This document shows positions 1 through 23,213 of a stretch of 23,543 nt of DNA, piece after piece; position 1 is the stretch's first letter, and every line of letters begins with the position of its first letter. A program made the position numbers and the translations under genes. A model generated the notes under the pieces. The model was not told where the DNA came from. It was given only the letters and a program-made list of their open reading frames with translations, and searched no databases. The DNA is taken from contig JBOEGF010000062.1 of the NCBI GenBank assembly GCA_050633305.1, positions 1-23,543 of the forward strand, read 5' to 3'. The stretch is from Nannocystales bacterium. GTDB taxonomy: Bacteria > Myxococcota_A > Polyangia > Nannocystales > Nannocystaceae.

Positions 1-1506
1 GTGCAGGAGATCGAGAACATCACAGATCTCGACACGGCGAAGCACGCCCTGGCGATGGCGTTTGCAGAGATCCAGCGTCTCAACAAACGCATCGCGACGC
101 TGACGACCCAGCTCGCAGCGGCGAAGGGCAAGGCTGAGGCAGACCAGCTTCAGTTGGAGCTCCAGCATCTGCAGGAGCAGCTCGGCGCGTTTCAACACAA
201 GGTGTTCGGCGACTCGTCGGAGAAGCGACCGCGCGGCAAAGGTTCGCGACCTGCGAAGAAACCGAAGCGCGGCCACGGGCCTCGCGAGCAGCCCGAGTTG
301 ACGAAGCAAGAGGTCCTCTTCGAGCTGCCCGAAAGCGACCGCAGCTGCCCTTCGTGCGGAGAGCAGATGGCCGCCGTCCCGGGCCTGACCGAGGACAGCA
401 CCGTGATCGCGAAGCTCTCGCAGCAGTTTTGGGAACTGCTGGCGAAACGTCAGAAGTACCGATGCTCGTGCAACGGCGCGTTGCGGGTGGCACCGGGCCC
501 GCACAAAGCGATCGAAGGCGGACGGTACACGTTGGACTTCGCGGTGAACGTCGCGGTCGACAAATACGCCGACGCGCTGCCGCTTGAACGTCAAGTGCGG
601 ATCATGAAGCGTGCCGGGCTGCTGTGCGATTCGCAGACGCTGTGGGACCAACTCGACGCACTCGCCGTGCACCTCGAGCCGAGCTATCTCGCGCTGCGCG
701 AGTACATCATCGGCGCGGATGTCATCGGTGCGGACGAGACTTGGTGGCGGCTGATGCAGAAGAAGGCGAACAAGAAATGGTACGCCTGGGGCCTGACCAC
801 GCACGATGCGTGCTGGTACAAGCTGGCCGACAGCCGCTCCGCCAAACTCGCCTCGGAAGTTCTCGAGGGCTTCGAAGGCACGGTGCTCTGCGACGGCTAC
901 AAGGCGTACGAGACGGTCGCGAAAGAGTGTCGGTCGATCAAGCTGGCGCACTGCTGGGCACACGTTCGCCGCAAGTTCGTCGAGGCTGAGCCGAACTATC
1001 CGGTTCCGTGCGGCGAAGCGCTCGAGATGATCGGCGAGCTCTTCGCCATCGAAGACGGACTGCTGAAAGCCGACGCTCTCGAAGGCGATGCGAAGATCGA
1101 GTTGCTCAAGCTCCGGAAGGCGCAGCGCGAGAAGTACTCTCGCCCGCTACTCGACAAGCTCAAAGCTTGGGCGCTGACCCAGCGCGGGCTGCCGAAGAGT
1201 GGATTGCGCAAAGCGATCGACTACATGCTGCTGAGATGGAAGGGGCTTTGCGCCTTCCTCGACGACCCGCACGTCGAGATCCACAACAACCAGACCGAGC
1301 GTGCGCTTCGGGGCATGGTTCTCGGGCGGAAGAACCACTACGGCTCGCGTTCGAAGCGAGGGACCGAGGTCGCGGCGATCATGTACAGCCTCGTCGAGTC
1401 GGCGAAGCTGTGCGGCGTGAACCCGGTTGAGTACCTGTTCAAGGCGGCCGTTCGAGCGACCAAGACGCCCGGCGCAACGATGCTGCCCAACGAACTGACC
1501 GTGTAG
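1..1506 (+). CDS. tnpC: IS66 family transposase TnpC
   Basis: N-terminal coiled coil ending FGDSSEK, CPSCG..CSC zinc finger, LPLERQ, ADETWW, CDGYKAY, CWAHVRRKF, NNQTERALR, GRKN and AKLCGVNP motifs typical of IS66 TnpC. Confidence 0.95.
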   Translation: MQEIENITDLDTAKHALAMAFAEIQRLNKRIATLTTQLAAAKGKAEADQLQLELQHLQEQLGAFQHKVFGDSSEKRPRGKGSRPAKKPKRGHGPREQPELTKQEVLFELPESDRSCPSCGEQMAAVPGLTEDSTVIAKLSQQFWELLAKRQKYRCSCNGALRVAPGPHKAIEGGRYTLDFAVNVAVDKYADALPLERQVRIMKRAGLLCDSQTLWDQLDALAVHLEPSYLALREYIIGADVIGADETWWRLMQKKANKKWYAWGLTTHDACWYKLADSRSAKLASEVLEGFEGTVLCDGYKAYETVAKECRSIKLAHCWAHVRRKFVEAEPNYPVPCGEALEMIGELFAIEDGLLKADALEGDAKIELLKLRKAQREKYSRPLLDKLKAWALTQRGLPKSGLRKAIDYMLLRWKGLCAFLDDPHVEIHNNQTERALRGMVLGRKNHYGSRSKRGTEVAAIMYSLVESAKLCGVNPVEYLFKAAVRATKTPGATMLPNELTV

Positions 1507-12958: not shown

Positions 12959-13508
12959 TCACTTGTTCGCCCCGCATTTGCCCTCTCCCCCGCACTTAGC
13001 CTCGGCGCCACACTTCATTTCTCCCCGGTCATCCTTGTGCTTGGTGGCTGCCGCTTTCTTCGGAGCCGTGTCTGTTGGCGCTTTCGCAGGCACCGCGGGG
13101 GGCTCTTTCGGAGCCACGACCTCTGTGACCGCGCGCGCCTGGTCTGGGGAAACGGACGGGGTACGCTTCGAGCGGCGACGCTTCTTGGCCGCCTTCGGCG
13201 GCGGCGACGGCACCACAGCAGGCTCGCTCGCCGCTGCAGCGACACCGCCTTCGAGCGGATCCACGTTCGCCCGGTCGGCGATCGGCACAGCAGGCACGTC
13301 CGGCTCTGCGGATGCTCCGCACTTGCCGGCCCCGCACTTCCCTTCGCCGCACTTTCCCTTCGCCGCAGCTTGCCTCACCGGCGTCAGCAGCCGGAAGAAC
13401 CTCTTGAGCTGGTGTCGAAATCTCGGGGGCGGCTGGGCTATCGCACGCGACCAGGGCTGCTCCTGTCCCGAGGGCGGAGAGGATTTTGTAGATTGTTTTG
13501 GCGTCCAT
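12959..13508 (-). pseudogene. Frameshifted lipoprotein with seven xxxCG repeats (EGKCG type, HvfA-like); 182 aa if repaired
   Basis: Lipobox LVAC; one extra A at 13353-13355 (GGGAAAG versus GGGAAG in the adjacent 15-bp repeat) joins two ORF-track frames: EASCGEGKCGEGKCGAGKCG...EMKCGAEAKCGGEGKCGANK. Confidence 0.8.
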
Positions 13509-13515
13509 GAATCCC

Positions 13516-14949
13516 TCAAGTCGCGCAGCAGCTGAGCTTGGAGACGTCTTTTCCGAACGTGATTGCGGCGAGCTTGATTCCTTCGGAGAGCGTCAAGTAC
13601 GGGTGCAGCAGTTCGCGCAATTCGGCGATCGTCAGCTGGCCGCGGATTGCGACTGCCAACTCCATGAGTAGCTCGGATCCCTCTGGGGCGAGGATCCGAG
13701 CCCCCAGCAGTCGGTCCGTTTTTCGGTCCCGGATGAGCTTGATGAAGCCGCGAGTGTCGCGGGCCGCGAGGGCGCGTGGAACGTAGCTCATGGGCAACGT
13801 CGCAGCTTCGGCGTCGAACCCCGCCGCGCTCGCCTGCCGTTCGTCCATCCCGATTCCTGCCACCTGCGGGTCGGTAAACACGACCCATGGCGTGGGTTGA
13901 CCGCTGCGAAGGAGGGACGCGTCGGAGAGCGCATTTCTAGCCGCCCGTGCCCCATCGGCAGCTGCGGTGTGCACAAACATCTCGCCGCCCGCCACGTCGC
14001 CTGCAGCCCAGACTCCCGGTGCCGTGGCCTGCAGGTGCTTGTTGACCCGGATGAAACCACGGTCGTCTGTCTTGACGCCGGCGGCGTCCAGCCCAAGTGC
14101 ATCTGTATTGGGCACGCGCCCTGTGGCCAGCACAATGTGCTCCGCGCGGAACGTGACGCGCTCGCCATCACGTTGGCCGTGCAGCACCGCCTCGCCGGAC
14201 TCGCGCTCCACCGATTCGATTTGGACGTGGTTCTCGACCGCCACCCCCTCCTCGACCAGAAACGTCGCGAGCCCGTCGCCGATGTCTGGAAGTTCGCGCG
14301 ACAACAGCCGGCTGCGCGTGACGATGGTGACCTTCGTGCCGAAGCGGGCGAACATCTGCGCGACCTCCAGCGCGATGTAACCTCCGCCGACAACGAGCAT
14401 CGAGGTGGGAAGCGCCTCGAGTTCGAACGCACTCTCGTTGTCGAGATACCCGACCTCGCCCAGCCCTGCGATTGGCAGCGAGGCCGGCCGGGCCCCGGTC
14501 GCGATGATGATCTTGTCTGCGAGCAATCGGCGCCCATCAACCTCGACCTCGGTCGCGCTCACCAGACGAGCTCGGCCGTCGATGCGGGTGAACCGCGGGA
14601 GATCGGCGACCACGTCGACATACTTGGCTTGCCGGAGTTCCTCCACCAACGCTCGCTTCTGCGCGATGACCTGCTTGAAGTCCGAAACACGCCCCGAGGT
14701 TTCCACCCCGGCGAACGAATGTCGCTGCGCGCGATGAACCACATCCGCCGCACGGATGAGTGTTTTCGAGGGCACACAGCCGACGTTGACGCAGGTTCCA
14801 CCGATCGGCAGACCGTCGTTGATCATCGTGACGCGCGCACCCAACTCGGAGGCCGTGATCGCAGCGGAGAAGGCGGCCGATCCTCCACCAACGATCACGA
14901 CGTGTGGGGGAGCGGAAGGGACAACCGACATGTTCTTTTTCGTGCTCAT
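13516..14949 (-). CDS. merA: Mercuric reductase without N-terminal NmerA domain
   Basis: GGGSAAF, GGTCVNVGCVPSK, LRQAKY, HPYLT and C-terminal LSCCA. Confidence 0.96.
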   Translation of the reverse strand: MSTKKNMSVVPSAPPHVVIVGGGSAAFSAAITASELGARVTMINDGLPIGGTCVNVGCVPSKTLIRAADVVHRAQRHSFAGVETSGRVSDFKQVIAQKRALVEELRQAKYVDVVADLPRFTRIDGRARLVSATEVEVDGRRLLADKIIIATGARPASLPIAGLGEVGYLDNESAFELEALPTSMLVVGGGYIALEVAQMFARFGTKVTIVTRSRLLSRELPDIGDGLATFLVEEGVAVENHVQIESVERESGEAVLHGQRDGERVTFRAEHIVLATGRVPNTDALGLDAAGVKTDDRGFIRVNKHLQATAPGVWAAGDVAGGEMFVHTAAADGARAARNALSDASLLRSGQPTPWVVFTDPQVAGIGMDERQASAAGFDAEAATLPMSYVPRALAARDTRGFIKLIRDRKTDRLLGARILAPEGSELLMELAVAIRGQLTIAELRELLHPYLTLSEGIKLAAITFGKDVSKLSCCAT

Positions 14950-14984: not shown

Positions 14985-15650
14985 TCAGGAGTTGACGGCC
15001 GCCGACGGATAGCCGATGTCGGTCGTGGCCTTGGTGAGGTCGTCAACCTGCACCTTGGCGGGGTCGAACTCGACCACCGCCTGCGGCGGATTGCTCGTCA
15101 CGTCGATCACCTTCACGCCGTCGAGGGCTGCAAGCGCCTTGCGAACGTTGTGGGGGCATGCCGCGCAGGTCATGTTCTCGATCGAGAGCACGACACGCTC
15201 GCGGTCTTGTGCGACGGGGGCGGCTGCGAGTGCCTGGGCGGTGGCAGCACTGCCTGCGGGCTCGCTGTTTGACCCGTCTGCCCACCCAACGATGCTCGGC
15301 ACCATCAAGAGTCCACCGACCAGCAGCGCGACGCCCCACAGGGCAGCCTTGTTGACCCGGTCGGTGCGTGGGTCCGCGCAAAGGCTGCCCGGCACACACG
15401 CCTCCGGCTCCGAGGATTTGGCGTAGACGCGAGAGAAGGCGAACCCGAGGAAGCCACCCGTCGCGAGCGTGAGCAGGGGTTTGATCGGCTCGAGGAACGT
15501 CAGGCTGCTCATCCAGGCACCCGACGCGCCCAGAGCGATCAAGACAAGTGGCCCCACGCAGCAGATCGACGCCGCCACAGCAGCGCCAATGGCCGCGCCA
15601 AGAGTTCGGCGAGAACTGACCTTCGATTGGATTGGGTTCGTACTTGACAT
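14985..15650 (-). CDS. merT: MerT-MerP fusion mercury transporter
   Basis: ASICCVGPL, GAW, LEP and ACVPGSLCA (MerT), followed by HMA domain NMTCAACPHNVRKAL...GYP; alternative start GTG 15656. Confidence 0.92.
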   Translation of the reverse strand: MSSTNPIQSKVSSRRTLGAAIGAAVAASICCVGPLVLIALGASGAWMSSLTFLEPIKPLLTLATGGFLGFAFSRVYAKSSEPEACVPGSLCADPRTDRVNKAALWGVALLVGGLLMVPSIVGWADGSNSEPAGSAATAQALAAAPVAQDRERVVLSIENMTCAACPHNVRKALAALDGVKVIDVTSNPPQAVVEFDPAKVQVDDLTKATTDIGYPSAAVNS

Positions 15651-15692
15651 GGTCACGTCTAGGCAAACGAGATTGCCTCTCCAGAAGTTTCG

Positions 15693-16121
15693 CTATTGAA
15701 CGACCGTACTCAACTCCGGAGTCGGGTCGAGTGCTTCGATCAGTGGGCAGGCATGCGGGGACAGAGACCCGCAAGAGCGAACCAGCCCTCTAGAGCTTTA
15801 CGCATCGCACACAGGTCCAAAAACTCTGGCTTCGACTTCTGCGTTCTTCGCCTTCGCTCGGCTCCGCATCCGCCCGCACTATGCCTCGCTGCGGCTGCCT
15901 CGCAACGCGAGCATCTCCTCGACGTCGTCAAGAGAAGAACCCAACTGCTGGGCCCGCGTGATGAAGCGGATGCGGCGCAGCACTTCCTCACCGTAGCGGC
16001 GCCAACCCGAAGTCGGAGATTCAGGCTGTCGGATGAGACCTCTCCGCTCGTAGAATCGGATGGTCTCGACGTTGACGCCCGCCTCAACGGCCAGCCGACC
16101 AATAGTTCGTCCTTCGGACAT
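15693..16121 (-). pseudogene. merR: Second merR copy, inactivated
   Basis: GVNVETIRFYERRGL HTH; TAG at 15879-15881, then two frameshifts; the remainder still reads CGRMR...SCGSLSPHACPLIEAL. Confidence 0.85.
15695..15725 (-). promoter_or_regulatory. Degenerate MerR-type promoter/operator upstream of merTP
   Basis: CCGACT-CCGGAGTTGAGTACGGTCG(19)-TTCAAT; weak -35; overlaps the 3' end of the merR pseudogene. Confidence 0.5.
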
Positions 16122-16141: not shown

Positions 16142-16173
16142 AGCGTAAGCTCCGGACACGGGTACGGAGTCAA
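16142..16173 (-). promoter_or_regulatory. MerR-type promoter/operator
   Basis: TTGACT-CCGTACCCGTGTCCGG...-TACGCT with 19-20 bp spacer, similar to Tn501 TTGACT-CCGTACATGAGTACGG. Confidence 0.8.
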
Positions 16174-16314: not shown

Positions 16315-16737
16315 TCACGAGCGAGTGTCGAGCGCATCGAGGATCGGGCATGGGCGGCCGGTCCCATCTTCAGGACAAGAGCCCGCAAGATCCGCCAGCA
16401 CGTCTCTCACCGCCATCAGGTCGCGGACCTTGTCATCGATCTCCGCGATCTTGTCCCCAGCCTTCTTGCTCACCCGTTTGCACGTCGCTGGACTCGCGGA
16501 CCCACGGAGCCCAAGCAGCTCCTTAACCTCCGCCAGGGTGAAACCGAGCTGCTGGGAGCGCTTGATGAACCGTATGCGACGCAGCGCGGTCTCGTCGTAT
16601 CGCCGCCAGCCTTGCAGAGGCTTGCGCGGCTGCCTGAGCATTCCAATGCGCTCGTAGTACCGGATCGTTTCCACGTTCACCCCCGCATCCTGGGCGAGCC
16701 CGCTGATCGTCCAGGTTTCCTGCTCCAGGTCGGCCAC
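16315..16737 (-). CDS. merR: Hg(II)-responsive regulator MerR
   Basis: GVNVETIRYYER, RFIKRSQQLGFTLAEV, three Cys (TCKRV, SCPEDGTGRPCPIL) at the Hg-binding positions. Confidence 0.92.
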   Translation of the reverse strand: MADLEQETWTISGLAQDAGVNVETIRYYERIGMLRQPRKPLQGWRRYDETALRRIRFIKRSQQLGFTLAEVKELLGLRGSASPATCKRVSKKAGDKIAEIDDKVRDLMAVRDVLADLAGSCPEDGTGRPCPILDALDTRS

Positions 16738-16834: not shown

Positions 16835-16865
16835 TTGAATCCGGACCCTGGTACGGAGCTATCCT
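16835..16865 (+). promoter_or_regulatory. MerR-type promoter/operator for the Fe-S gene-merB unit
   Basis: TTGAAT-CCGGACCCTGGTACGGAGC(19)-TATCCT. Confidence 0.85.
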
Positions 16866-16871
16866 GAGCGC

Positions 16872-17330
16872 ATGGAAGCACCGGTCACGACCTGCCCTGC
16901 ATGTGGATCGCGCGGACGTCGCGTCGCGGACGCCACTGTAGAAAATCTGGTGAAAGGTGACCATGCAGCCGCGCTTGCCGGTCGTGCGTTGTTCTGTTCG
17001 AGCGGAACGTGCGAGGTCGTCTACTTCGAGCCTGGCGGCGTCGTGGTCCCGAAAGCAGATGTTCGCGTGCCGGTGTTCCAGAAAGAGACCGACCCTGCGC
17101 GTCCGGTCTGCTACTGCTTCGATCATTCGGTGGAGGACGTCGTGGCCGCCAAACGCGCCGATGGGAGCAACGCGATCGTCGAGTCGATCACCGCCGCGTG
17201 TCGAGCCGGCCTCGACCGCTGCGAGGAAACGAGCCCTCAGGGCCGTTGCTGTCTCGGCAACGTACGGGCCGTCGCAAAGGCTCCCCCACAGGCCAAAACA
17301 TCCCCCTCGTGCTGCGGAGACAGCCCGTGA
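16872..17330 (+). CDS. Cys-rich Zn/[2Fe-2S] metallochaperone-like protein (Archaeoglobus CopZ N-terminal domain type)
   Basis: CPACG, FCSSGTCEVVYF, VCYCF, CEETSPQGRCC, C-terminal SCC. Confidence 0.85.
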   Translation: MEAPVTTCPACGSRGRRVADATVENLVKGDHAAALAGRALFCSSGTCEVVYFEPGGVVVPKADVRVPVFQKETDPARPVCYCFDHSVEDVVAAKRADGSNAIVESITAACRAGLDRCEETSPQGRCCLGNVRAVAKAPPQAKTSPSCCGDSP

Positions 17331-18046
17331 AGACTGAGGATTCTCCACACAATGGCCGAGGTCTCACCGCGGAGGCTGATCGCTTCGAACACATCTCCCG
17401 TAGCCTGCTCGCCGCATCGACTTTTCTCGACGGCGCGCAGGCGGCCCTGACTCGGACCGTGTACAGGGCGCTCGTGCAGGGGGCTCCTGTCTCGATCGAT
17501 ACTGTCGCCGCAACGGCAGGGTTCTCCGCAGACAGGGCCGAGGAACTCTTGGCGCAGGGACCAGGGTTGACCCGCGATGACCGCGGAGCCATCGTGGGCT
17601 ACGGCGGCCTCACGTTGAGGGAAACGAAGCATCAGTTTCGAATCGATGGGAAGCGGCTCTACACCTGGTGTGCTCTGGACGCGTTGTTCTTGCCCGTCGT
17701 GATTGGGCGAGGGGCCGACGTAGTTTCCATCTCCCCGACGACTGGTGAAACGGTCCGGGTCCGCGTTGAGGCCGATGGAACATCAACTTCGGCCCTTGAA
17801 GGGGTCATGGTGTCCTTCGTGACCCCGCAGACCCCATTGGCCGCGGATGTCCGCGCGAGGTTCTGCTGCTTTGTCCACTTCTTCGAGTCCCGGGACGTCG
17901 CCGAGCAGTGGGCGACGACCCAGTCGGACATCGAGATCTTGTCGCTGAGTCGGGCGTCCGAACTCGGGCGGCGCTTGACGTACCGGATGTTCGGAGCCGC
18001 GCCGGAGCCCGTTGCGGACGCGGTCACCCCGTTTACAATCCGGTGA
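17327..18046 (+). CDS. merB: Organomercurial lyase
   Basis: GLTLRETKH, LYTWCALD, FCCFVHFF; GTG start overlaps the upstream stop (GTGA). Confidence 0.9.
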   Translation: MKTEDSPHNGRGLTAEADRFEHISRSLLAASTFLDGAQAALTRTVYRALVQGAPVSIDTVAATAGFSADRAEELLAQGPGLTRDDRGAIVGYGGLTLRETKHQFRIDGKRLYTWCALDALFLPVVIGRGADVVSISPTTGETVRVRVEADGTSTSALEGVMVSFVTPQTPLAADVRARFCCFVHFFESRDVAEQWATTQSDIEILSLSRASELGRRLTYRMFGAAPEPVADAVTPFTIR

Positions 18047-18073: not shown

Positions 18074-18946
18074 TCAGTCAGACGCGACGGACCTGATCGC
18101 CGCCTCGAGCTTCACTTCATCACCCGCTTCGTAGTTGCGGTGGCTGAAGACGACGGCGCCGGTGCTGTCGAGGACGAACGTGAGGGGGATGCTGGCTCCC
18201 TTCGCGTGTTGTGCGAGGACCTCGCCATCAGGATCGAGCGCGATGCCGTAGGTGACACCGCGGTCTTTCGCGACCTTCCGCAATGCAGGGTGGTCCTCCG
18301 ACGCGTCGATGCTCACGCTGATGAACTCGACCCCCTTGGGGCCATAGGTCTCGTGCAGCTTCACCAAATGAGGCGCCTCCTCCAAGCACGGGGCGCACCA
18401 ACTCGCCCAGAAGACGACGACCGCGGCTCGCTTGCCGAGGACCTGACCGAAGTCGTAGGTCTCGCCCGACAGGAGCGGGAGGACAAACGGCTTCCCGCGT
18501 GTTGCAAGCTCAGTGGCTTTGGTTGGCTCAAAGTCCCACTGGATCTTGTAGTCCTCACCCCGGGTCTTCCCGTGGGCCAGGATCGCGGCCTCGAGTTCCG
18601 GCCGTGCGACCTGGGCGCCGCCGTTCAGATGAGCGTTGAACACCCCGGTGTCGGGGTCGAAGTCGACCTTGTTGATTGCTTGCAGCCCTTCCAGGGCTCG
18701 CTTGACCCCGTTGGGTCAACCCATTCACAACGCGCCGTTGATCCGCCTCATCCCGTCGATCGTGAACTGAAAGTCCTCCTCGTAGACCTTCTGCGCCCCA
18801 GCATCACCGGCTGGCTCAGCTCTCGCGACGACGTCGCCGGCCTCCCGCGGAGAGGAGCTGTCTGCCGGCGCGGGGGCCGAGCCAGAGCGACAAGCGCTCA
18901 GGCTCGCGGCGAGGAAGAGGACCGTTCGCAGTGGGCGGATTGCCAT
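18074..18946 (-). CDS. Putative double-selenocysteine lipoprotein: HMA-like domain (UMGU) fused to a TlpA/thioredoxin domain (WCAPC), 290 aa
   Basis: One frame from ATG 18946, lipobox LSAC; in-frame TGA at 18727-18725 and 18718-18716 in FTIDGMRRINGAL-U-MG-U-PNGVKRALEGLQAINKVDFD; continues into FWASWCAPC and SIPLTF. Confidence 0.8.
18682..18719 (-). promoter_or_regulatory. Two hairpins after the UGA codons, candidate bacterial SECIS
   Basis: mRNA UUGACCC-AACG-GGGUCAA (18719-18702) and AGCCCU-GGA-AGGGCU (18698-18684); the GGA loop is 23 nt after the second UGA and 32 nt after the first. Confidence 0.55.
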
Positions 18947-18953
18947 GTCATCG

Positions 18954-18984
18954 AGTATCGCACCGTACCGTAGTACGGAATCAA
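18954..18984 (-). promoter_or_regulatory. MerR-type promoter/operator for the UxxU gene
   Basis: TTGATT-CCGTACTACGGTACGGTGC(19)-GATACT, perfect CCGTAC-N4-GTACGG dyad. Confidence 0.88.
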
Positions 18985-21610: not shown

Positions 21611-21788
21611 GACTTATGCGCAAAGTAAACCCCGCTAACCTCCTGAAGTCACGTGACTGGCGACGGCCTGAAGGATGAGGGCCGGGCACGTGGGCGATCG
21701 CCGCGTCGCTTCCAGAGCGATGGACGGCCGTTCAGAGCGAGGGCTCGGACGCTCGGTAAGATTATGCGCGAAGTGGTCCCCCTCGTTG

Positions 21789-23030
21789 TCACAGCTCGAA
21801 GCGGTACATCCCCTGGGCGTTGACGTGTCCGAACCGCATCGGGGAGATGTGCCCGAGCAGCTCCAGCGGTAGCGACTCCCCGGGTTTCGACGCTGTAGAT
21901 CAGTTCGGTGAAGGAGGCGTGCTGCTTGCTGCCATCGAGGTAGAGGTCTCCGCTTCGGAGGCCGTCGCGGATTGCGACGGCAAGGCTTGTCTCCCAGAGA
22001 CTCCGGTTGACGACGCGGCCTTTCACAACGAGCCCAGCTCTCCACTTCTTCGGGACGAAGTCGAACGGAGCGTCGCGAGGGAGCCTGCCGATGCTGCCGT
22101 TGTCGAGAGCCCGAACGAGCTCGATCGCCTTGATGATGCTCTCTGACCCGGGCTCGGCGCGGAGAGGAAGCCCCATCACCCGCGGCAAGAATCTGCGAAG
22201 GGGGCCGTATGCTGCGCACAGCTCGTCGCGGAGACCGTGCCGTGCCGCCTTCTGCCCGCGCTCGGCATGCTCGACGACGCTGAGGAACTCCTGAGCCCCG
22301 CTGTCACCCCCAAGGGAGGTTTCCCATGCCGCTCCGAGCGTCACGTCAGCATCGGGATCAAGCCCGCGCTCAATGGCTGCACGCACCTTTTGTAGAACCT
22401 TCGAGGTTGCATCGTTGCTCTGCTGCCATCGCAGCATCTTGCTGTCGTGGTGCCGTCTCTTTGCCCGCTGCCACATGAGGGTGATGTAGTGGTCGGTCAT
22501 CACCACGGACTCGTCGAGGAGGCGACTGCGAGCGGTCAGCAAGTACGCCACGACCAGCGCATACCGCCTCGACGGCCTCAGTCGCCGAAGCTCCCAGGCG
22601 TTGTATCGCTTCGTCTGCTCCGCCTGCTCGGCGAGGCGTGCTGGCGTTGCCAGGGCGGGTAACGCTACGGACGACAAGTCGAGCAGCTCGACCTGTTCGA
22701 GGCGATCGAGCTGCTCCAAGATGTTCACCGCCTTGGCGCTCTTGGCCGAGCGGTGCAGCGCCGAGAGGACCGACGTCCCCTCGGTCACATCCAGCACGCG
22801 CTGGTCGATCACCTCGCGAACTTTCTCTGGAAGCGCGTCGGCGATTTCCTCCAGCAGGGATGACTCTGCCTGGGCGTGGGCGGAGGCCACGAGTTTGTCG
22901 AGCACCGTCTGACCTGCCCGCACGAGCTCGCGCCTCTGAAGCCACGCCCGCGCGCAGGCATGCAACCCGTCCCGAGAGCTTCCGCCATGAGCCAGGCGCA
23001 GGAGCTCCGCACTGAGAGCAGAGGCGTCAG
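21789..23030 (-). pseudogene. tnpA: Tn3-family transposase, internally deleted
   Basis: N-terminal part (LDKLVASA, RRYALVVAYL, LRRFLP, WETSL...LRSGDLYLDGSKQH) joined near 21883 to the C-terminal tail GHISPMRFGHVNAQGMYRFEL* in another frame; DDE region missing. Confidence 0.85.
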
Positions 23031-23138
23031 ACTCCGGCGGGCTCGAATGAGCCGCTTGATGTCCGCTCGCTGGTTGTCCAGCGTCTGCTCCTCGGTGCTG
23101 ACCCGCAGGTAGACCGCTGTTCGCTTCTTGGCCGCCAT
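23031..23138 (-). pseudogene. Serine recombinase (resolvase) N-terminal fragment
   Basis: MAAKKRTAVYLRVSTEEQTLDNQ, the catalytic Y-x-R-V-S motif; similarity lost after about 35 codons. Confidence 0.85.
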
Positions 23139-23213
23139 TGCCGTGGGCGTACAACGTGGAGGCTGCGTCGGTTGCGCTGTGAGCGGTTTTTACACGGATA
23201 TGGTTCCTACCCG

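What the first reader, a model, noticed from the sequence alone, without database searches (positions are those of the whole stretch)
18074..18946. Hidden double-selenocysteine (UxxU) HMA-TlpA lipoprotein under MerR control
Seen: the ORF track gives two pieces, but they share one frame broken only by TGA-ATG-GGT-TGA (codons 74 and 77). The context TIDGM-RRINGAL-U-M-G-U-PNGVKRALEGL aligns with this window's own MerP domain SIENM-T-CAAC-PHNVRKALAAL, so both TGAs fall on the metal-binding Cys positions. The frame has a lipobox, a C-terminal WCAPC thioredoxin domain, the best MerR box in the window, and no other lesion. Established: UGA encodes Sec given SelABCD and a SECIS, and Hg binds selenols more tightly than thiols. 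Inference: an exported Hg-scavenging or redox selenoprotein whose TlpA domain recycles the UxxU site. Standard annotation would miss it.
Basis: partly seen in the sequence, partly recalled or inferred. Interest (0 to 1): 0.95.

Follow-up and report, generated by a model that had tools for sequence, protein, structure and literature searches.

The report
Hidden two-selenium lipoprotein in mercury cluster
Two apparent stop codons inside this mercury-resistance-cluster gene almost certainly encode selenocysteine, giving an exported protein that joins a selenium-based metal-binding domain to a disulfide reductase, from a family that protein databases hold only as broken halves.

Summary
Confirmed. 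Window 18946-18074 (minus) is one 290-codon frame broken only by TGA74 and TGA77. The host has selA, selB, selC and selD. All 13 other close (TlpA-type) homologs found keep both TGAs, and a hairpin fitting the bacterial SECIS model lies within range of both. A distant clade (16 further UxxU genes, mostly Planctomycetota) carries a classical thioredoxin; five have a third Sec in its active site, and one is fused to MerT-MerP. With Cys standing in for Sec, AlphaFold gives an HMA fold plus a ResA/TlpA fold behind a lipobox. No close Cys form was found; two database proteins show Trp, probably TGA misread (unverified). Nine of 13 core loci have mer-type neighbours, but MerR control is not general and many carriers lack MerA. 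Best reading: a lipid-anchored periplasmic Hg(II)/soft-metal capture protein whose own reductase keeps the diselenol reduced; function is inferred only. UxxU HMA selenoproteins are known (NF041115, cut-off not met). The HMA-reductase fusion is absent from a 2026 inventory of 119 families. This scan noted related Sec-HMA proteins, one fused to thioredoxin, on other DNA. Verdict: new variant of a known kind.

The parts
18074..18946 (-). Full gene: 290-aa lipoprotein, signal + linker + HMA(UxxU) + TlpA/ResA domain
18954..18984 (-). MerR-type promoter/operator: -35-like TTGATT, dyad CCGTAC-N4-GTACGG (18963-18978), 19-bp spacer, -10-like GATACT; ATG 7 nt downstream (probably leaderless mRNA, inferred)
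   Evidence: MerR operator consensus recalled, and matched to the boxes ahead of merR/merT in relatives
18890..18946 (-). Lipoprotein signal peptide ending in lipobox LSA-C19
   Evidence: Cys column conserved in 14 of 15 aligned members
18785..18889 (-). Ala/Pro/Ser-rich flexible tether (residues 20-54)
   Evidence: pLDDT mostly under 50
18533..18784 (-). HMA (MerP/CopZ-fold) domain with a 6-residue insertion between GM and the metal motif
18725..18727 (-). TGA = Sec74, first metal ligand position
18716..18718 (-). TGA = Sec77, second metal ligand position, followed by an invariant Pro
18702..18719 (-). Hairpin 1 (UUGACCC-AACG-GGGUCAA) that contains the second UGA; possible auxiliary recoding element
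   Evidence: 2 of 7 pairs with two-sided changes; not recovered by RNAalifold
18684..18698 (-). Predicted SECIS, AGCCCU-GGA-AGGGCU; loop 32 nt after UGA74 and 23 nt after UGA77, so one element can serve both
18083..18499 (-). TlpA/ResA-type thioredoxin domain, WCAPC at 18386-18397, Ile-Pro at residues 253-254
17327..18046 (+). merB organomercurial lyase, convergent with the gene
   Evidence: NF009710 197.5 bits, cut-off 193
16872..17330 (+). CopZ_Nterm_CC Fe-S metallochaperone-like gene behind its own MerR-type box (16841-16856); frequent neighbour of the family
   Evidence: NF047645 103.8 bits, cut-off 100
16315..16737 (-). merR with three Cys at the positions typical of Hg-MerR (pattern recalled)
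   Evidence: TIGR02051 136.1 bits, cut-off 150.85
15879..16121 (-). Second, C-terminally truncated merR behind a MerR-type box (16152-16167)
14985..15656 (-). MerT-MerP fusion (CAACP) behind a MerR-type box (15704-15719)
13516..14949 (-). merA mercuric reductase with C-terminal CC
   Evidence: TIGR02053 521.5 bits, cut-off 454.45

Best explanation
The gene encodes a real double-selenocysteine lipoprotein. Both UGAs are decoded by the host SelB using one SECIS (about 95% likely). When Hg(II) activates MerR, the protein is made, lipid-anchored and exposed to the periplasm (inferred). Its HMA domain binds Hg(II) or organomercury between Sec74 and Sec77 as a high-affinity soft-metal capture site. 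The fused TlpA domain, recharged by DsbD, keeps that pair (and probably MerP's CxxC) reduced against periplasmic oxidation, as TlpA does for the copper chaperone ScoI. Captured metal is buffered and passed to the MerP-MerT-MerA/MerB route. Shown computationally: reading frame, Sec machinery, SECIS fit, folds, promoter and neighbourhood. Inferred: export, metal identity, direction of electron flow and hand-off.
For: Host selA, selB, selD above cut-off and one tRNA-Sec. Both TGAs in 13 of 13 other core homologs and in 15 of 17 profile matches in 14 of 201 Planctomycetota genomes; the other 2 are UxxC. selA above cut-off in 13 of 14 other UxxU carriers, and the 14th has a contig-end selA fragment plus selB, against 67 of 121 phylum genomes; 12 of 13 against 27 of 39 in Planctomycetota. 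A hairpin fitting the bSECIS model in 17 of 17 loci, 15 of them at -7.1 kcal/mol or lower; among control codons 1149 of 2633 have any such hairpin and 346 of 2633 reach -5. Gly codon GGT in 14 of 14 core genes against 14% in the host's long ORFs. HMA fold (Z 9.4, rmsd 1.9, 70 residues to 1fvq; MerP 1osd and 1afi also hit) and ResA fold. mer-type neighbours in 9 of 13 core loci. L221 is a MerT-MerP(CxxC)-HMA(UxxU)-thioredoxin fusion, and L129 an all-Cys MerT-HMA-thioredoxin fusion in a merR operon. Five distant members have UxxC in the thioredoxin. DsbD in the host. TlpA reducing ScoI/CoxB before metalation: PMC6669012, passages. Hg affinity for selenol: PMC11639659, passages.
Against: No expression or protein data. 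MerA is above cut-off in only 3 of 16 other carriers (a fourth, adjacent and with C-terminal CC, scores 442.6 against 454.45). A single-contig carrier (G359) has merT-merP next to the gene, but its best MerA hit lacks the C-terminal CC. Four of 13 core loci show no mer gene and four use ArsR. CusA-type RND, a CopA-type ATPase and arsJ occur nearby. Transfer from a selenolate site to thiolate MerP/MerT should be uphill, and diselenides are harder to reduce than disulfides (recalled chemistry; one search gave no usable source). RNA structure support is mixed: single-strand z = -1.53, RNAalifold did not recover the hairpins, and the +1-slid control equals the covariation score (0.175 against 0.165).
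Confidence: 0.55

Rival explanations
1. Redox relay rather than metal store: electrons flow DsbD to TlpA to UxxU, and the exposed diselenol reduces or de-metalates periplasmic dithiols (MerP, MerT loops, other envelope proteins) damaged during Hg stress.
For: Every UxxU member whose DNA was read is fused to a thioredoxin-fold domain, of two different subtypes; five carry Sec in the thioredoxin too. The insertion displaces the canonical Thr before the motif. Salmonella Scs reductases protect envelope redox under Cu without changing Cu levels (bioRxiv 10.64898/2026.05.22.727170, passages).
Against: The domain keeps the HMA fold and the C-x-x-C-P register of MerP. Stand-alone inserted HMA proteins without a reductase also exist (UxxC forms in L209 and L212; P0092 and P0118).
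Confidence: 0.17
2. The physiological metal is not Hg alone. It is a general soft-metal (Cu(I), Ag(I), Au(I), possibly As(III)) envelope chaperone/reductase recruited into this mer cluster.
For: Most carriers lack a MerA above cut-off. ArsR regulators in 4 of 13 core loci; CopA-type ATPase, CusA-type RND, and arsJ with its GAPDH nearby. The top fold matches are Cu-handling HMA domains. The CopZ_Nterm gene is the most constant neighbour.
Against: A perfect Hg-MerR-type dyad and a three-Cys merR in this genome; merT, merP, merA or merB adjacent or fused in many loci. Fold rank does not tell the metal.
Confidence: 0.15
3. Terminal selenium sink: Hg bound to the two selenolates is not passed on but immobilised, ending as Hg-Se adduct or HgSe after deselenation, which gives protection independent of MerA.
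For: RSeHgSeR adducts decompose to HgSe in animal and chemical systems (PMC11639659, passages). The core clade has no Cys form, and MerA is often missing.
Against: A fused reductase and tight linkage to the importer MerT argue for turnover and hand-off. Two Sec per bound Hg is costly. Missing MerA may reflect incomplete MAGs.
Confidence: 0.1
4. The TGAs are real stops or Trp: a 73-aa lipopeptide and a separate TlpA are made, or the gene is a pseudogene.
For: Databases annotate exactly these two pieces. An in-frame GTG exists at codon 102. Two related proteins show WxxW.
Against: Two in-frame TGAs held at the two ligand positions across two phyla with sequence conserved on both sides; co-occurrence with selA; SECIS fit. 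The host's only UCA-anticodon tRNA is tRNA-Sec, and TGA ends this very gene. The GTG at codon 102 has no SD-like sequence. In P0118 the only two Trp are those two sites, which fits a gene caller reading TGA as Trp (inference).
Confidence: 0.03

Closest known systems
[quoted passage not shown]
   Same: HMA-type domain with Sec at both metal-ligand positions; predicted only.
   Different: 74-position single-domain model. This protein scores 17.4 bits against a cut-off of 95, and distant members reach 57-81. It has a 6-residue insertion before the motif, a lipoprotein anchor and a fused TlpA/thioredoxin domain.
MerP, periplasmic Hg(II)-binding protein (TIGR02052; PDB 1osd, 1afi)
   Same: Same fold, C-x-x-C-P register, export signal and mer-cluster setting.
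   Different: Sec instead of Cys, insertion, lipid anchor and own reductase; the cluster also has an ordinary MerP fused to MerT. No TIGR02052 hit for this protein at E 0.01.
TlpA/ResA periplasmic thiol reductases (B. diazoefficiens TlpA reducing ScoI/CoxB; Salmonella ScsD; B. subtilis ResA)
   Same: ResA-like fold (Foldseek E 1e-13 to 1st9/4nmu), CxxC, membrane anchor; proposed job of keeping a metal site reduced (PMC6669012).
   Different: The presumed substrate is in the same chain and is a diselenol; below every TlpA/ResA model cut-off (best 61.9 against 170).
NF045683 MerT/CopZ fusion-like heavy metal transport selenoprotein, and the SAO-system selenoproteins (Haft and Gwadz)
   Same: Selenoproteins tied to mer-like metal handling and truncated in databases.
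   Different: Different domains: no MerT in this protein, and NF045683 is not among its hits at E 0.1. The SAO system is described from anaerobes, mostly Firmicutes.

Membership tests
Bacterial selenoprotein | In-frame UGA at a conserved Cys-equivalent position, with conservation on both sides | tested here: met
Bacterial selenoprotein | selA, selB, selC, selD in the genome | tested here: met
Bacterial selenoprotein | bSECIS: G-led apical loop 16-37 nt after UGA, stem of 4 or more pairs, MFE at or below -7.5 | tested here: met
   Loop at +32/+23, hairpin -7.8 kcal/mol (model from PMC13188914). My scan is a simplified version, and 44% of control codons pass its loosest form.
Bacterial selenoprotein | Close Cys-containing homologs (Sec/Cys pair) | tested here: not met
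   None close among 68 hits, 57 hits, profile search of longer proteins (weak test) or pattern scan. Only generic CxxC HMA domains and UxxC forms (L130, L209, L212).
Bacterial selenoprotein | Se shown in the protein | not testable with these tools
   needs 75Se or MS
NF041115 UxxU_metal_bind | Score at or above 95 bits | tested here: not met
   17.4 bits; best distant member 81.2 with two HMA domains
NF041115 UxxU_metal_bind | UxxU in an HMA domain | tested here: met
NF041115 UxxU_metal_bind | Small single-domain protein (model 74 positions) | tested here: not met
   290 aa, two domains
HMA superfamily (PF00403) | Ferredoxin-like beta-alpha-beta-beta-alpha-beta fold with two ligands at the start of helix 1 | tested here: met
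   Model with Cys for Sec, pLDDT 91.8; Z 9.4 to 1fvq and 1opz
HMA superfamily (PF00403) | Pfam gathering score 24.8 | tested here: not met
   22 bits, lowered by the insertion
MerP (TIGR02052) | Score at or above 92.55 bits | tested here: not met
   no hit at E 0.01
MerP (TIGR02052) | Binds Hg(II) and passes it to MerT | not testable with these tools
   context only
TlpA/ResA-type thioredoxin domain | Thioredoxin fold, CxxC and conserved Pro; Redoxin/AhpC-TSA above gathering score | tested here: met
   PF08534 63 against 26.6, PF00578 62.5 against 26
TlpA/ResA-type thioredoxin domain | Reductase activity fed by DsbD | not testable with these tools
   DsbD is present in the host
MerR regulon | Dyad inside a long (19-20 bp) spacer promoter (definition recalled) and a cognate merR | tested here: met
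   holds for this genome and 3 other core loci only
Lipoprotein | Lipobox Cys after a hydrophobic leader | tested here: met
   By motif only, no predictor available

The most novel reading that the evidence does not exclude
The family is a selenium-based, self-regenerating mercury trap of the bacterial envelope: the UxxU site out-competes thiols for Hg and can immobilise it as Hg-Se, the fused reductase (itself Sec-armed in some members) re-arms unused sites, and this protects cells even without MerA. That would be a genetically encoded use of the Se-Hg antagonism, a second route of Hg resistance beside reduction to Hg(0).
Probability: 0.15. Interest if true: 0.88.

Novelty: new variant of a known kind. 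Interest (0 to 1): 0.63.

Why it matters
Predicted bacterial selenoproteins linked to Hg exist, but the 2026 review says their roles in metal detoxification still need investigation (PMC13188914). This family offers a compact test case: a two-domain protein under an Hg-type promoter in an intact merRTPAB cluster, with natural UxxC, triple-Sec and four-Sec variants and a MerT-MerP fusion for comparison. It also has no close Cys homolog, which Cys-pair pipelines and deep-Sep require (PMC12013277), and probably decodes two UGAs with one SECIS.

Tried and rejected
Metagenome locus scan was swamped by generic TlpA and gave only a near-identical copy of the window (L040, 99.8%). Profile search of longer proteins gave 0 of 7999 candidates (weak evidence). 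No match in plasmids. No relative of P0092 in viral contigs, so the Trp question stays open. NF041115 had no member above cut-off in 201 phylum genomes, so no true member was available for direct alignment. No RNA holder listed. The sigma-70 scanner found no promoter because it allows only 16-18 bp spacers. Of 36 pattern hits, 23 were dropped as unrelated frames or proteins. Rejected: pseudogene or assembly error; TGA=Trp in the host; membership in NF041115, MerP or any NCBIfam model. Literature searches showed no paper describing an HMA(UxxU)-thioredoxin/TlpA fusion. Haft and Tolstoy 2025 was not held and was seen only through the review's table. BSepDB main text had 0 hits for six terms. No supplements were opened, so an entry there cannot be excluded.

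Full report
OBSERVATION. The minus-strand frame 18946-18074 translates, with TGA read as Sec, to 290 residues with U74, U77 and a TGA stop (coordinates). The protein has a lipobox (LSA-C19), a low-confidence tether, a domain with GM-RRINGAL-U-MG-U-P, and a C-terminal WCAPC domain. Profile comparison with the window's own MerP puts both U on its CxxC, with a 6-residue insertion (probability 92.5%). Contigs from two independent metagenome studies cover both TGAs without a listed change (the third run, X1, may be the source of this DNA, and X8 does not cover the site).

HOST. The window is contig C62 of an 11.0-Mb, about 66% GC genome. A same-family genome matches a record titled Nannocystaceae (G010 = L150), so the host is probably a myxobacterium (inference). 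It has selA (397 bits, cut-off 268), selB (265, cut-off 242), one tRNA-Sec and a selD with its own in-frame TGA and a GGUCU-loop hairpin at +32. It also has a DsbD.

HOMOLOGS. The top 21 of 68 protein hits (45-65% identity) are all fragments that begin after the UxxU; none is full length. The upstream 73-aa piece is also in the database, once on a contig of the same length as the best downstream fragment. In DNA, 2 of 59 relatives have the full gene with 2 TGA, and 0 of 6 same-genus genomes do. A motif scan of 185,579 genomes that allowed TGN at both sites gave 36 hits; 13 are homologs and all 13 have TGA at both sites; 23 were unrelated. With G042 this makes 13 other core (TlpA-type) genes, all with TGA-ATG-GGT-TGA; one of them (L151) is partial. 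A profile of the HMA domain found 6 of 400 other phylum genomes and 17 matches in 14 of 201 Planctomycetota genomes, 15 with UxxU and 2 with UxxC. These distant members carry a classical thioredoxin and form a separate branch (99/98 support, long branches; one search included three of them). Five have a third Sec in the thioredoxin (UxxC), one has a second Sec-bearing HMA (four Sec), and one is a MerT-MerP(CxxC)-HMA(UxxU)-thioredoxin fusion. Among 57 hits in 1.84 billion representatives, the HMA-type ones are generic CxxC repeats except two with the insertion, P0092 and P0118, which show Trp at both sites. They come from contigs of 1.2 kb or less, and in P0118 these are the only Trp, which fits TGA read as Trp by a gene caller; I could not see their DNA.

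SEC SIGNALS. selA is above cut-off in 13 of 14 other UxxU carriers tested. The 14th (G356 = L147, unpublished; counts that include L147 rest partly on it) has a contig-end fragment and selB. The baseline is 67 of 121. In Planctomycetota it is 12 of 13 carriers against 27 of 39 non-carriers; kin are not independent and the baselines are high. The bSECIS model (loop of 3-9 nt led by G, 16-37 nt from UGA; PMC13188914 passages) is met in 17 of 17 loci for both UGAs by a single hairpin, at +32/+23 (or +31/+22) or +25/+16. In the control, 1149 of 2633 codons have any such hairpin and 346 reach -5 kcal/mol. The same hairpin register recurs in the Planctomycetota genes. Synonymous choice is fixed near the site (GGT 14 of 14 against 14%; CTG 14 of 14 against 35%). 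Against: the single-strand fold is not significant (z -1.53), RNAalifold found another weak helix, and although 5 of 12 named pairs show two-sided changes, the +1-slid control matches the covariation score; two subclades use different hairpins.

STRUCTURE. With Cys standing in for Sec, AlphaFold2 on a 15-row alignment gave pLDDT 86.8 and pTM 0.77, with a beta-alpha-beta-beta-alpha-beta domain at 59-136 and a thioredoxin fold at 155-288. Foldseek matches the latter to ResA. The N-domain alone (pLDDT 91.8) matches HMA domains including MerP, CopZ and NmerA (best Z 9.4, rmsd 1.9, 70 aligned). Whether the two active sites can meet was not tested.

CONTEXT. The window holds merA, merT-merP, two merR (one truncated), a CopZ_Nterm gene and merB, flanked by CusA-type RND and CDF efflux genes, an IS66 and a Tn3 remnant. 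The gene has its own perfect MerR-type dyad in a 19-bp spacer promoter; the operator consensus is recalled, but the same dyad precedes merR/merT in relatives. Nine of 13 core loci have at least one homolog of the window's mer-cluster genes; four do not, three of these on short or ending contigs. merR with the box lies upstream in 3 core loci and ArsR nearby in 4. MerA is above cut-off in only 3 of 16 other carriers, and the single-contig G359 has merT-merP beside the gene without a recognisable MerA. A distant all-Cys MerT-HMA-thioredoxin fusion sits in a merR operon in G089.

MECHANISM. Most likely (0.55 for the whole chain; about 0.95 for the selenoprotein itself): Hg-activated MerR induces a lipid-tethered periplasmic protein whose diselenol captures Hg(II), while its TlpA domain, fed by DsbD, keeps that site and probably MerP reduced, buffering and feeding MerT-MerA. 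The precedent is TlpA reducing ScoI and CoxB before copper loading (PMC6669012, passages). The fusions with MerT-MerP and the repeated pairing with two different thioredoxin types support functional coupling (inference). Weak points are the uphill hand-off from Se to S ligands and the difficulty of reducing a diselenide (both recalled), and the frequent lack of MerA. Rivals: redox relay (0.17), other soft metals (0.15), terminal Hg-Se sink (0.10; chemistry in PMC11639659, passages), no read-through (0.03).

KNOWN AND NEW. The inventory of 119 prokaryotic selenoprotein families (PMC13188914; parts 1 and 2 of 3 of section 7 read, including the whole Table 1) lists a UxxU metal-binding protein (NF041115), a MerT selenoprotein and a UxxC P-type ATPase, but no HMA-thioredoxin/TlpA fusion. 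The window protein and 7 distant relatives stay below every NCBIfam cut-off, and for the 15 aligned members no dedicated model appears (which gives scores only for the first). Other papers were seen as passages only: PMC9312934, bioRxiv 2022.07.06.499078 (59), PMC8261052, bioRxiv 2026.05.22.727170 (83), PMC13326102 (87, no hits), PMC12013277, PMC10298544, PMC1976440 ('UxxU' does not occur in its main text) and PMC5769350. Searches showed no description of this fusion. Haft and Tolstoy 2025 was not held and no supplements were read. The scan's own notes had nothing by sequence or place but six by words, on other genomes: exported UxxU HMA proteins in Acidobacteria, a UxxC MerP-like protein, and one HMA(UxxC)-thioredoxin (unchecked AI notes, not used as support).

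VERDICT. A real, conserved and apparently undescribed selenoprotein family: it works like MerP with a built-in TlpA, but is not a member of NF041115 or MerP by score or architecture. New variant of a known kind; interest 0.63.

Noticed in passing
L209, L212, L218, L219, L220 (G523, G647, G522, G612, G573); L217 (G575): Distant family members with three Sec (UxxU HMA plus UxxC thioredoxin) and one with four Sec (two Sec-bearing HMA domains); G523 and G647 also have neighbouring small UxxC HMA genes.
   Followed up: partly
L221:1084-2298 (-) (G487): Single frame MerT-MerP(CxxC)-HMA(UxxU)-thioredoxin.
   Followed up: partly
L132:819-2210 (-) (G352): MerA-like flavoprotein next to the family gene with TGA at the first redox-active Cys and no C-terminal CC. 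No SECIS by my scan and 0 of 301 genomes by pattern, so either a nonsense mutation or a rare selenoenzyme.
   Followed up: partly
window 12959-13508 (-): Just downstream of merA, a lipoprotein-like ORF shifts frame into KCGEGKCG repeats resembling metal-binding MNIO-modified peptide precursors (resemblance recalled; no NCBIfam hit for either frame; no Pfam hit for the 159-aa frame). L040 has the same frameshift.
   Followed up: partly
window 16841-16872 and 18946-18984; L120, L146, L167: MerR-type promoters here sit only 6-8 nt ahead of the ATG, suggesting leaderless mRNAs in these mer clusters.
   Followed up: no
L159:4229-5760 (-) (G364): Downstream of the Phycisphaerae member, two further in-frame TGAs in LLSPT-U thioredoxin-like motifs; a selenoprotein-rich metal cluster.
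   Followed up: no
L129:1051-2837 (-) (G089): merR, a small Cys-containing thioredoxin-like gene and an all-Cys MerT-HMA-thioredoxin fusion in one operon.
   Followed up: partly
window 15879-16121 (-); 1-1506 (+); 21649-23154 (-): Truncated second merR, IS66 transposase and Tn3 remnant; the metal island looks mobile and the gene was not found in 6 same-genus genomes.
   Followed up: no
   Followed up: partly
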